Shown piece after piece: positions 50,201 through 53,200 of a DNA stretch of 64,000 bases. The position numbers were made by a program. The stretch lies in NCBI GenBank assembly GCA_034530615.2, contig JAVRCV020000068.1, forward strand, positions 79,393 to 143,392. The letters run 5' to 3'. The DNA is from Aulosira sp. ZfuVER01 (GTDB lineage Bacteria; Cyanobacteriota; Cyanobacteriia; Cyanobacteriales; Nostocaceae). Numbering within the stretch: the first letter of the stretch is position 1; every line of letters starts with the position of its first letter.

Positions 50201-53200
50201 TGTTGTAACTCCTTTTCCTGAAAAAATGGAGTTGCGTATAGTGTCATCAAAGCTGTCATTATTTTCCTTAGACCGCGCTGAATAAACCATCGTCGTTATA
50301 CTGAACTTATCAGGGTCTCAAGTCTATGATTCAGTATTTTCACGCATGATTTTTGATAAATACGCCGATTTTTTTATAATTATCTGTCGTGGATTAATTT
50401 TATTTTCTAGATAACTCTTGCGGTGAATCATCGTCTTTATTTACTGCAACAAAACTCAACTATTTCTGCTTTCTGAATTTACTCAGTGAAGTCTCTCTAG
50501 TGTTACCATTCTCTTTTGCCAGAAAAACCCAAGAATATGCTGTCAGTACGAAGGATACTGTGGAGTCTTTAGCTTTTGAAGACTACGATTGTTTAGAAAG
50601 AAACCATTTTTATGATTTGGCAACCATACTGACAAACATAATTTCTCTAGTTTGACTTACTGGTTACTAACCACAAATATTGGTAAAAATGGGAGTAGAT
50701 AGAACGTTTATCAGCGAAACACGTTTTAAAGATGAGCAATACCAGCAATTTTCGTGACGCTATTCGTGAGGCTAAAACTCAAGCCCTAGTAGGCCCAAAT
50801 GTAATTGCCAATGCCCTTCCCTATGTTGGTGGCGGTCTTGTGCTGACCGCATTGGGAACCTACGGAGGTTTGGGAGTTATCCGTACTAACCCCGGATTGT
50901 TTTTCCCCACCTTCATTGGTGCGGTCATCCTGGAGTTAATTCTGTTTTTTGTGGCCCAAAATGTTGCTGAAAAAGGCAATAAGGGTCTAGCACTTCCCCT
51001 ACTAGCTACCTACAGCCTCTTATCTGGATATACTCTCAGTGGCTTAGTGTTTGTCGCCTTGAGAACCCAAGGTGTAGGTATTCAAGGCATTGGTTTGGCG
51101 GCCCTTGGTTGTGGTGTTACTTTTATCGTCGCCCGTCAAATTGGTTCCAATCTTTCTGAACAAGACGGGATGGCTTTAACCAAAACCATCTCTCTCGGCA
51201 TCATTGCCTTGGTGGTGGTTTGTCTGACTCAATTTGTGTTTGCCTTGTTTGGTGTCTATACACCAACTTGGCTAGAAATCGCCATTTCTGGTTTGGGAGT
51301 ATTTCTGTTTGCTGGGGCATCTGTGGTTGATTTCTACATCTTGCCACGTACTTATCGCAACGATCAGTACTTGCCTGCGGCTTTGTCTATGTACCTCACC
51401 TACATCAACCTGTTTATCTTTATCTTGCGGTTGCTAATTGCCTTGAATGGCCGTGACTAAGAATCTTTAGTTACTAGAGAAAAGTAAAGTTTGATAAATT
51501 ATCACCGTGGTTGTTGAGGTTCAACCACGGTTTTTTAATTGGATGAGATATGAATTTGTGTAATACAATATGTAGTAATCCCAATTTGAAAAAAGAATGC
51601 GACAGATACACAGCCCCAAACCATTGTCCTGTCTGAATTCTTAATTTTGAATTTTGCGAAAAGTTGCGTGCGGTGAGTCCATTCCTGAAGGTGGGTTTCC
51701 CGCCGTAGGGAACTGGCGAACCCGAAGGGGGGTTCCCCCCGTTGAGCAAACTTTTCAAGACGAATTTTGAATTGGTATAAGTTGTTAGCTGTAAGTGAGC
51801 AACAATATGCTGGAAGTCCCCAATATCAAACGCGAAGTAGAAAGGTTATCAAATATCCTAAGCAAAGCTGAGGATTGTCTTTGACCTGGGAGAAATAATT
51901 ACCAGAATTAAAGAATTAGAACAAATAATTTCTCAATCTACTTTTTGGGAAAATAGCTTTAATGCTTATCCAGCAGTAAGAGAGATTGAATCTCGCAACG
52001 CCAAAAAGACACAATATCAGCGATCGCATTCACTTATAGAAGATATCAAAGCTGCTTTAGAACTGTTGGAGTTCTCACCTGATAAGCAATTAATGTATGA
52101 AGTGCAAACTAACCTAATCCAGCTTCAAAAAGAACTCAAAACACTAGAAATACAACAGTTACTAGTTGACTCCTACGACCAAAAGAGCGCATTTCTTACT
52201 ATTACTGCTGGGGTTGGCGGAATACATGCCGAAGATTGGACTTCGACTTTATTTAGGATGTAGCATCTTTGGGCAAATAGCCACGATTACCGAGTACGTC
52301 TACTCGAATATTCTTACGGAGATTCAGCTGCAATTAAATCTGCCACGCTAGAAATTACAGGTCTTTACGCCTACGGCTGCCTAAAATCAGAACAAGGAAG
52401 CCATGTAAGAATAGTCAGGATTTCTCCTCAAAATGGTAATGGTAAGCGGCTCACTTGCGTTGCAAGTGTAGAAGTTAGCCCTGTTTTAGATAAATCAATG
52501 GATTTGGAAATTCCAGAGAAGGATTTAGAAATAACTAAGTGGCGTTGGAATTATGACAATCTTAAAAGTTCCGCAATATGGGTGCGAGTGCTTCATATTC
52601 CTACCGGAATCACTGTGGATTCTAGTGAGGAACGTAATCAGATGCAAAACCAAGAGAAAGCCTTAGCTATTCTCAAAAGTAAGCTATGGGCTTTAATGCA
52701 ATCCCAAGGTGTTCAAGATGTTGCCGAAATTCAATCCGCCAAAATAAAATTTCTATCCGAAAAGCCCATCCGCGAATACATTTTGTATCCGTACACCAAG
52801 GTGAAAGATTTGCGTACCAATGTGGAAACAACATCTGCAACGGCGGTTTTGAATGGCGACATTGATTTGTTTATCAAAGCTTATTTGCAAAAGCAATATC
52901 AAATCCTGGAGTGAGCAAATAGACTTTTGTTTCTTACTTGGTGGTATTGCTGGATAGTTCCAGTAATTTTAGCAACTTATACAAATGCAATGCGAGAACT
53001 GGCTCAACTACAGCTAAAATCAAAAAGGCAAATAGAATTTAGGGCAAATTCTTAACAATTAGAAGCCCTCTATCTTTAGTAAACACTATGGATGTTTTAG
53101 AACTCAAACGCGAAATCGAAACGTTGTCTTATCGCCTGGGTAAAACCCAGGACTATCTTTGACGTACCTGCACTGAATGCCAAAATTCACGACTTAGAAC

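What a model noticed while it worked through the whole genome (the two positions that open the first line are those of the whole stretch)
51807..52914. Tandem RF2 paralogue without GGQ that keeps the prfB +1 frameshift site
Directly upstream of the true prfB lies a second, diverged RF2 gene (called as fragments g05741 and g05742): it keeps a 25-codon ORF1 ending in the classical CUU UGA C +1 frameshift site, but the catalytic GGQ loop is replaced (ITKWRWNYDNLK) and the stop-codon reader SPF is SPQ; in this genome it also has one in-frame TAG in place of a Tyr codon. I read it as a catalytically dead release-factor paralogue whose synthesis, like that of RF2, is switched on by the frameshift when RF2 activity is low, and which then occupies the A site at stop codons without releasing the peptide (a termination brake or decoy). 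New would be a bacterial counterpart of plant PrfB3 and a second gene using the prfB f [...]
Evidence so far: swissprot.tsv: g05741 = RF2 88-152 (52%), g05742 = RF2 230-363 (47%), g05743 = true RF2 84-370 (78%). One reading frame covers the whole paralogue, 347 codons, single internal TAG; GAGGATTGTCTTTGACC at the ORF1/ORF2 joint. DNA search of 30 relatives: paralogue at 69-86% identity in 11 of 14 same-genus genomes, in none of the 16 genomes of other genera (these match only through prfB at about 65%). Of 10 loci read (this one included) 7 are open throughout, 3 carry stops (TAG here; TAA in two). All 10 lack GGQ; 8 have SPQ or a variant (PPQ, YPQ, SHQ), 2 keep SPF; all keep ORF1, 9 the CTTTGAC site and one CTTTAAC. 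Pairwise dN/dS (NG86) among 8 copies 0.25-0.48, one close pair 0.72. Paper searche [...]
(Added by a program. Inside this text positions count along the whole contig: contig position 79,393 is position 1 of the stretch shown here. "Call 12" and the like, gene names such as g00115 and contig names such as C1 are that model's own, and its searches are not shown. The text may have been shortened before it was handed on; [...] marks where a part breaks off. The agent that wrote the report below was given it as the finding of a first reader that could run no searches.)

Follow-up and report, generated by a model that had tools for sequence, protein, structure and literature searches.

The report
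GGQ-less RF2 paralogue with prfB-type frameshift
Just upstream of the normal release factor 2 gene lies a second, catalytically disabled copy that keeps the same self-sensing frameshift switch; it belongs to a widespread, selectively maintained cyanobacterial gene family of unknown role, but the copy in this genome is probably freshly broken.

Summary
At 51807-52914 (+) a 25-codon ORF1 ends in CTT TGA C. The +1 frame then encodes a 343-codon RF2-like protein, 48% identical to the true RF2 next door, with SPQ for SPF, the GGQ loop deleted and one in-frame TAG.

A family profile finds the gene in 105 of 389 genomes of the family, in 8 genera, almost always 190-330 bp upstream of prfB. More diverged GGQ-less copies occur in another genus and in 2 of 190 genomes of other cyanobacterial families.

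The shift cassette is nearly invariant (TGTCTTT in 102 of 102 copies). dN/dS is about 0.30, against 0.05 for RF2, so the family encodes a working protein.

One finding is new. In one clade, 32 of 100 aligned copies carry an in-frame TGA-C at a single codon. It alternates with TGG. The frame downstream stays open and constrained: about 61 nonsense changes would be expected if it were neutral, and none is seen. This argues for UGA read-through as a second RF2-dependent gate.

The window's own copy looks recently inactivated: a TAG, a repeat insertion 30 nt before the start codon, and relaxed constraint.

Ribosome binding and any effect on termination are untested. I found no paper describing the family; public annotation calls it a "PCRF domain-containing protein".

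The parts
51579..51777 (.). About 200 nt of repeat (MITE-like) inserted between the upstream gene's terminator and the paralogue's leader. Relatives G013 and G008 lack it.
   Evidence: homology to L004 and L011 breaks at 51578 and resumes at 51778; contig depth at 51700-51786 is about 25 times that of the flanks (3200 vs 127 in X1); a terminator-like hairpin of the upstream gene lies at 51504-51531.
51778..51806 (+). Remaining conserved leader just before the ORF1 start (…AAGTGAGCAA…ATG).
   Evidence: positions -95 to -73 from the shift site (the 23 nt just before the ORF1 ATG) are 72-99% conserved (median about 0.88) in 102 copies. One search shows the upstream alignments.
51807..51884 (+). 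ORF1: 25 codons plus a TGA stop.
   Evidence: An ORF1 of the same length and near-identical sequence occurs in most of the 105 loci.
51870..51874 (+). SD-like GAGGA, 4 nt before the CTT codon.
   Evidence: True prfB has CAGGAC-TAT-CTT at the same spacing.
51879..51885 (+). CTT TGA C, the +1 shift site.
   Evidence: Across the 105 loci the site reads CTTTGAC in 95, CTTTAAC in 5, CTTTAGC in 2 and CTTTGAA in 1; 2 copies are 5'-truncated.
51883..52914 (+). ORF2 in the +1 frame: a 343-codon RF2-like protein with an internal TAG and a terminal TGA.
52261..52263 (+). In-frame TAG at a conserved Tyr codon, unique to this genome.
   Evidence: Contigs of X1 and X3 match with no differences.
52378..52380 (+). 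TGC (Cys) codon at the alignment column that is TGA in 32 of 100 copies.
52423..52431 (+). SPQ in place of the SPF stop-codon reader.
52531..52581 (+). ITKWRWNYDNLKSSAIW: domain-3 segment in which the GGQ loop is deleted.
52915..53087 (+). Spacer between the paralogue and prfB. The part 52963-53087 is also conserved upstream of prfB in relatives that lack the paralogue.
   Evidence: No terminator-like site was found in the spacer.
53088..54210 (+). True prfB: ORF1 53088-53162, shift site CTTTGAC 53157-53163, ORF2 53161-54210, with SPF and GGQ.

Best explanation
The window holds one member of a cyanobacterial family of RF2 paralogues. The family has lost the peptide-release loop (GGQ) but keeps the RF2 fold, most of the decoding domain and the whole prfB autoregulatory cassette.

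Shown:
- The cassette (ORF1, SD-like element, CUU UGA C) is conserved.
- The gene sits directly upstream of prfB.
- The protein is under purifying selection but evolves about ten times faster than RF2.
- The family is often lost or broken.

Inferred:
- Full-length protein is made only when a ribosome shifts +1 at the UGA, that is, when RF2 activity is low, as for prfB.
- In one clade of genus g50 a second in-frame UGA-C must also be read through, probably as Trp. This would make synthesis doubly dependent on low RF2.
- The product enters the ribosomal A site as RF2 does but cannot hydrolyse peptidyl-tRNA. It would therefore hold or mark ribosomes instead of releasing them.

The copy in this genome (TAG, repeat in the 5' region, relaxed constraint) is most likely a recently inactivated one.
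For: Anatomy.

Distribution and synteny:
- The gene is in 105 of 389 family genomes, in 8 genera.
- It lies 190-330 bp upstream of prfB and in the same orientation in nearly all loci.

Cassette: TGTCTTT is present in 102 of 102 copies, and the base after it is G in 93%.

Selection:
- Median pairwise dN/dS is 0.30 (IQR 0.27-0.34), against 0.047 for the true RF2 of the same genomes.
- Of 250 RF2 columns that are at least 95% conserved, 97 are kept and 21 are replaced by a different conserved residue.

The UGA codon:
- 32 of 100 copies have TGA at one column, in the context GGC TGA CTA or CTG.
- In 29 clean copies, dN/dS downstream of the TGA is 0.31, the same as in open copies.
- In a 37-row clade (30 TGA, 6 TGG, 1 CAA) the total tree length is 2.5 substitutions per site. 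About 61 nonsense changes would be expected downstream if the region were neutral; none is seen.
- TGG needs at least 4 changes on the tree.

Fold and annotation:
- Ranks 1-13 of the fold search are RF2 chains, and RF2 chains are also the best sequence matches.
- Public gene models already join ORF1 and ORF2 across the shift.

Expression (weak): RNA-seq contigs of a relative about 85% identical cover the paralogue at a depth similar to prfB.

This copy is probably dead:
- Branch dN/dS is 0.46-0.63, against 0.23-0.35 in relatives.
- There are 7 departures at 95 conserved columns, against 0-5 in relatives.
- A repeat insertion ends 30 nt before the ATG.
Against: - There is no direct evidence that the frameshift or the read-through happens, that the protein exists, or that it binds ribosomes.
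- Constraint is only moderate, and loss is frequent. Of 105 copies, 15 have other stops, truncations or frameshifts. Remnants occur in further genomes, and about 70% of the family's genomes lack the gene.
- Only 47 of 100 copies keep SPF. The region aligned with RF2's SWGNQ segment is replaced, so stop-codon-specific binding is uncertain.
- Two copies (G255, G295) keep GGQ.
- Pairwise dN/dS values are not independent of one another. The tree placing all paralogues outside all cyanobacterial RF2 was made with FastTree, and long branches may distort it.
- The RNA evidence comes from contigs of one study; DNA carry-over is not excluded.
Confidence: 0.55

Rival explanations
1. Cis-acting translated leader. 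What matters is the act of translating the long ORF upstream of prfB, which would be switched on by the RF2-sensing frameshift. It would stabilise or extend a joint transcript and so boost prfB. The protein itself would be dispensable.
For: - Adjacency and shared orientation with prfB are strict.
- No terminator-like site lies in the spacer.
- One RNA contig of a relative spans both genes.
- The cassette is conserved far better than the protein.
- In-frame UGA codons are tolerated.
Against: - dN/dS is 0.3 along the whole length, with an RF2-like pattern of conserved residues and 21 paralogue-specific conserved residues.
- prfB keeps its own conserved 125-nt upstream region, and the locus is collinear in relatives that lack the paralogue.
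- Open copies exist away from prfB: G503 on another contig, and G177 with no prfB within 1.5 kb.
- About 70% of the family's genomes do without the gene.
Confidence: 0.12
2. An off-ribosome role of a repurposed release factor, as in plant PrfB3: binding particular RNAs or partner proteins such as RF3 or PrmC instead of the A site.
For: - PrfB3 is a precedent: an RF2-derived protein without SPF and GGQ that protects petB mRNA (PMC5897788, passages read; PMC3472500, table passage).
- More than half of the copies have lost SPF.
- The region aligned with RF2's SWGNQ segment is replaced.
Against: - Many decoding-domain and domain-3 scaffold residues stay conserved, including LKSE.G.H, HIPTG and VKDLRT.
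- RF2-gated synthesis suggests a role tied to termination.
- No target can be named from sequence.
Confidence: 0.15
3. The whole family is only a decaying tandem duplicate of prfB with no function.
For: - Stops, truncations, remnants and losses are frequent.
- Evolution is fast.
- This genome's copy is broken.
Against: - 61 of 105 copies are fully open despite up to about 45% protein divergence.
- dN/dS is 0.30.
- About 470 nonsense changes would be expected over the tree if the gene were neutral. Only 45 stop cells are seen, and 32 of those are the one shared TGA column.
- The cassette is invariant.
Confidence: 0.05

Closest known systems
Bacterial RF2 (prfB) with its autoregulatory +1 programmed frameshift
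   Same: It has the same four-domain fold. It has the same short ORF1, SD-like element and CUU UGA C cassette at the same spacing. It is a tandem neighbour of prfB.
   Different: The GGQ loop is deleted, and SPF is changed in this copy and in 53 of 100 copies. The prfB model scores below its cut-off. Protein evolution is about ten times faster. The codon before CTT is TGT instead of TAT.
Plant PrfB3 (mtRF2b/pRF2b, AT3G57190)
   Same: It is an RF2-derived paralogue that has lost release-factor motifs and has a new, non-terminating role (PMC5897788 passages; PMC3472500 passage).
   Different: PrfB3 is a land-plant nuclear gene that has lost both SPF and GGQ. It has no frameshift and acts as an RNA-stabilising factor. 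Shared ancestry with the cyanobacterial family was not tested here. The papers' stated distribution (land plants) suggests an independent origin.
Balon (bacterial aeRF1 homologue, a hibernation factor) and Pelota/Dom34
   Same: These are release-factor relatives without GGQ that occupy the A site without releasing the peptide (PMC10901736 abstract and passages).
   Different: They belong to the unrelated aeRF1 fold, bind independently of mRNA and work with EF-Tu or Hbs1. No frameshift control is known. The likeness is one of logic only.
Other RF-1-domain proteins: PrfH and ArfB
   Same: [quoted passage not shown]
   Different: Both keep GGQ (recalled). Here the PrfH model scores 37.8 bits against a cut-off of 166.65, and ArfB gives no match.

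Membership tests
RF2 (prfB, TIGR00020) | PCRF and RF-1 domains in RF2 order | tested here: met
   PCRF 138 bits and RF-1 56 bits (partial, profile positions 29-116); the best structure and sequence matches are RF2.
RF2 (prfB, TIGR00020) | Score at or above the curated cut-off of the prfB model | tested here: not met
   311.2 bits against a cut-off of 370. The neighbouring true RF2 scores 483.6.
RF2 (prfB, TIGR00020) | GGQ peptidyl-tRNA hydrolysis motif | tested here: not met
   the loop is deleted. GGQ is absent in 98 of 100 aligned copies.
RF2 (prfB, TIGR00020) | SPF stop-codon recognition tripeptide | tested here: not met
   This copy has SPQ. Across the family 47 of 100 copies keep SPF.
prfB-type programmed +1 frameshift | Short ORF1 ending in CUU UGA C, an SD-like element a few nt upstream, and the main ORF in the +1 frame | tested here: met
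prfB-type programmed +1 frameshift | Ribosomes actually shift, and the efficiency responds to RF2 level | not testable with these tools
   There are only indirect signs: ORF2 is conserved and has no start codon of its own at its 5' end, and public gene models join the two frames.
Plant PrfB3 | Orthology with the land-plant PrfB3 clade | not tested
   No plant sequence was placed in the tree. The papers describe PrfB3 as confined to land plants.
Selenoprotein (UGA = Sec) for the clade with the in-frame TGA | selB, tRNA-Sec and a SECIS hairpin after the UGA | tested here: not met
   selB is above the cut-off in 0 of 5 genomes; tRNA-Sec is above the gathering score in 0 of 5; there is no stable structure (z +0.75).

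The most novel reading that the evidence does not exclude
This would be an RF2-derived 'anti-release factor' whose synthesis is gated twice by RF2 shortage: by the prfB-type +1 frameshift and, in one clade of genus g50, by read-through of a conserved UGA-C as Trp. It would sit on UGA or UAA codons in the A site without hydrolysing, pausing or parking terminating ribosomes until RF2 recovers. That would be a stop-codon-specific counterpart of the Pelota/Balon logic, built from the bacterial release-factor fold.
Probability: 0.2. Interest if true: 0.85.

Novelty: new variant of a known kind. Interest (0 to 1): 0.72.

Why it matters
As far as I recall, the prfB frameshift is the only bacterial +1 recoding switch of its kind, and it is described for prfB alone. 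Here a second gene family has kept the same switch for a long time while discarding catalysis. One clade has added a conserved in-frame UGA.

If the product acts on ribosomes, it would be the first bacterial class-I release-factor paralogue that binds without releasing. It would also give a natural handle on how cells respond to a shortage of RF2.

Strains that public sources name as carrying the gene exist in culture (Nostoc sp. PCC 7107 and several NIES strains). Reporter, proteomic and ribosome-binding tests are therefore feasible.

Tried and rejected
- Selenocysteine at the shared TGA: rejected. selB is above cut-off in 0 of 5 genomes, tRNA-Sec in 0 of 5, and there is no hairpin.
- Re-initiation after the TGA: unlikely. 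The first in-frame ATG, GTG or TTG lies 3 to 67 codons downstream and is not conserved.
- A read-through-stimulating RNA structure: none was found. Low synonymous divergence around the TGA is shared by clade-mates that have TGG, so it is not specific to the stop.
- Recent gene conversion from prfB as the source of GGQ in G255 and G295: not supported. Identity to their own prfB in that window is 0.57 and 0.65. The origin of these two GGQ-bearing copies stays unexplained.
- Notes of this scan near this place or for this sequence: none.
- The RNA contigs leave 52744-52917 uncovered at 80% likeness. I draw no conclusion from that.
- The AlphaFold model has only moderate confidence (pLDDT 68.9, pTM 0.41). 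I used it only to confirm the RF2 fold.
- Literature searches found no paper on a cyanobacterial GGQ-less RF2. Subscription-only papers and supplementary files were not seen.
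Full report
**What is in the window**

ORF1 starts at ATG 51807 and runs 25 codons to CTT (51879-51881), followed by TGA (51882-51884) and C. An SD-like GAGGA lies at 51870-51874.

From GAC at 51883 the +1 frame is open for 343 codons to TGA 52912-52914, apart from one TAG at 52261-52263. The product is 48% identical to the true RF2 encoded 173 nt downstream. That gene is 53088-54210 and has its own TAT CTT TGA C site.

- Pfam finds PCRF (138 bits) and a partial RF-1 domain (56 bits, profile positions 29-116).
- The prfB model scores 311 bits, below its cut-off of 370. The true RF2 scores 484.
- SPF is replaced by SPQ, and the GGQ loop is deleted.
- The own genome holds three class-I factors: this gene, RF2 and RF1.
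- Contigs of two DNA runs match with no differences, TAG included. They may be the source of the assembly.

**Distribution**

In the genus, 12 of 15 genomes including this one carry the gene. G001, G006 and G009 do not. In those three the locus is collinear without it, and the 125 nt before prfB are conserved.

I built a profile from 27 open copies and searched all 389 genomes of the family, which span 68 genera. Scores separated cleanly: paralogues scored 494-658 bits and true RF2 no more than 472. By my hand count of the rows, 105 genomes have the gene:

| Genus | Genomes with the gene |
|---|---|
| g1 | 12 of 15 |
| g50 | 81 of 127 |
| g39 | 2 of 3 |
| g44 | 1 of 1 |
| g25 | 1 of 11 |
| g46 | 1 of 18 |
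| g53 | 4 of 5 |
| g30 | 3 of 12 |

Targeted looks found more diverged or remnant copies:

- two tandem GGQ-less copies before prfB in each of three g67 genomes;
- further copies in two g46 genomes;
- fragments before prfB in G113, G294, G217 and G192, and a partial copy at the start of another contig in G025.

In a sample of 190 genomes from 37 other families of the order, two have a GGQ-less second copy. In G452 it lies directly before prfB and its site is CTT TAA C. In G503 it lies on another contig.

Among the 150 best representatives of a library of 1.8 billion proteins, 10 lack GGQ. Sources name members of these clusters from Oscillatoria princeps, Coleofasciculus and Trichocoleus. Public names for the family are 'PCRF domain-containing protein' or 'peptide chain release factor 2', in Nostoc spp., Komarekiella, Tolypothrix and Calothrix. 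Three records that I read join ORF1 to ORF2 across the shift.

**State of the 105 copies**

- 61 are open.
- 29 have only a TGA at one shared codon.
- 1 has a TGA four codons further on (G329).
- 6 have other stops (G000, G011, G005, G115, G234, G148).
- 3 have the shared TGA plus another stop (G386, G308, G342).
- 2 are 5'-truncated (G279, G338).
- 3 are frameshifted (G369, G301, G347).

The shift site reads CTTTGAC in 95 copies, CTTTAAC in 5, CTTTAGC in 2 and CTTTGAA in 1. TGTCTTT is invariant in the 102 copies with enough flank. True prfB has TAT where the paralogues have TGT.

GGQ survives in only 2 copies, G255 and G295. This is not through recent conversion from their own prfB. The SPF position reads SPF in 47 copies, SPV in 28, SPQ in 5 and other tripeptides in 20.

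**Selection**

I computed pairwise NG86 values over 4005 pairs from the 90 loci that hold both genes. The values are not independent of one another.

- Paralogue dN/dS has median 0.30 (IQR 0.27-0.34). True RF2 has 0.047.
- Median dN is 0.21 for the paralogue against 0.022 for RF2.
- Forty-codon windows give 0.18-0.57, except the variable C-terminal tail.
- Of 250 RF2 columns at least 95% conserved in 116 cyanobacterial RF2 sequences, 97 are kept in the paralogues. Another 21 are replaced by a different conserved residue, and 132 are variable or deleted.
- The region aligned with RF2's SWGNQ segment is among those replaced. From memory, this segment is the switch loop that couples codon recognition to opening of domain 3.

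In a FastTree of 226 rows, all 108 GGQ-less copies form one clade (support 95). This clade lies outside all 116 RF2 sequences of the order. A single old origin is therefore not ruled out, but long branches may mislead. The paralogue tree does not follow genera: g50 falls in at least three places and g1 in two.

**The shared UGA**

At alignment column 168 the codon is TAC in 34 copies, TGA in 32, TGC in 10, TGG in 6, TTT in 5, TGT in 5, and other codons in the remaining 8 of the 100. The TGA is always preceded by GGC and is followed by CTA, CTG or CTC in 31 of 32 copies.

- In the 29 copies with no other stop, dN/dS is 0.37 upstream and 0.31 downstream of the TGA. Open copies give 0.34 and 0.31.
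- On a DNA tree built without that column, a 37-row clade of g50 holds 30 TGA, 6 TGG and 1 CAA. TGG needs at least 4 changes on the tree.
- That clade's tree length is 2.5 substitutions per site. About 61 nonsense changes would be expected in the 186 downstream codons if they were neutral. None is seen in the 37 rows. The frameshifted G347 copy was left out of the alignment.
- Selenocysteine, re-initiation and a stimulatory RNA structure found no support.

I read this as a maintained read-through of UGA, most simply by tRNA-Trp. Such read-through competes with RF2, as the frameshift does. Earlier notes of this scan describe conserved in-frame UGA codons in phage release-factor-like genes. They are unchecked leads, not support.

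**This genome's copy**

- The TAG is unique to this genome.
- Its branch dN/dS is 0.46-0.63, against 0.23-0.35 for G013 and G007.
- It departs from 7 of 95 conserved columns, against 0-5 in relatives.
- A high-copy repeat of about 200 nt (51579-51777) replaces everything more than 30 nt upstream of the ATG.

It is probably a young pseudogene. I put this at about 0.7.

**Expression**

In two RNA-seq runs of one study, from a relative about 85% identical, contigs cover the paralogue and prfB at similar depth. In one run a single contig covers both genes. Contigs cannot show a transcript, and DNA carry-over is not excluded.

**How it most likely works**

The conserved cassette makes synthesis depend on slow termination at UGA, that is, on low RF2 activity. 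This is inferred from the established prfB mechanism.

The product keeps the RF2 fold and much of domains 2, 3 and 4, but it cannot hydrolyse. The simplest reading is an A-site binder that does not release the peptide.

A pure competitor that blocks both release and slippage would not change the release-to-slippage ratio at the prfB site. For that reason I do not favour a simple 'amplifier' role (inference). Pausing or parking terminating ribosomes, or recruiting other factors to them, fits better. None of this has been tested.

Rival readings are a cis-acting translated leader, an off-ribosome role like that of PrfB3, and plain decay. They are weighed in their own sections.

**Known relatives and novelty**

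Five literature searches and passages of four papers gave no description of this family. The closest analogues are plant PrfB3, and Balon and Pelota. Public annotation already holds gene models with the frameshift, so the gene is not unseen. What is new is its interpretation, its breadth and the conserved UGA.

Noticed in passing
window 51579-51777: A high-copy repeat (MITE-like, with GC-rich inverted segments) is inserted here compared with relatives. Contig depth is about 25 times that of the flanks.
   Followed up: partly
L141/L146/L137 (G260), L165/L169 (G276), L166/L170 (G199): Genomes of genus g67 carry two tandem GGQ-less RF2 copies before prfB. The copy next to prfB keeps TGT CTT TGA C. 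The distal copy has no recognisable shift site yet is open.
   Followed up: partly
L038 (G255), L042 (G295): Two paralogue copies nested among GGQ-less ones keep GGQ (…GGQNANKTET…) and SPF. The segment is unlike both sister paralogues and their own prfB, so its source is unexplained.
   Followed up: partly
L098 (G365), L105 (G337): Two sister copies have CTT TAG C at the shift site, a stop read by RF1, and TGG instead of TGA at the shared internal codon. Both UGA gates changed in a single lineage.
   Followed up: no
37 of the g50 paralogue loci, e.g. L035, L038, L053: A 21-nt in-frame insertion (…ATGCCTACGGCTGGCTACGCCTACGC…, 7 residues MPTAGYA-like) sits in the helix after domain 3. It is scattered across paralogue clades.
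   Followed up: no
L009 (G011), L010 (G005): In the two genus members that share a TAA in the paralogue, prfB lies about 4.3 kb away instead of about 250 bp. Something is inserted between the two genes.
   Followed up: no
L168 (G174:C38): An extra, very diverged RF2 with GGQ and its own GGGGGTAT CTT TGA C site sits on a separate contig. It may be foreign DNA or contamination; the genome is rated at 4% contamination.
   Followed up: no
window 53135-53151: A 7-bp hairpin (CCTGGGT…ACCCAGG) ends just before the shift site of true prfB. It matches the 'pausing structure' reported for cyanobacterial prfB (PMC12873609 passage). The paralogue keeps only a degenerate version.
   Followed up: no
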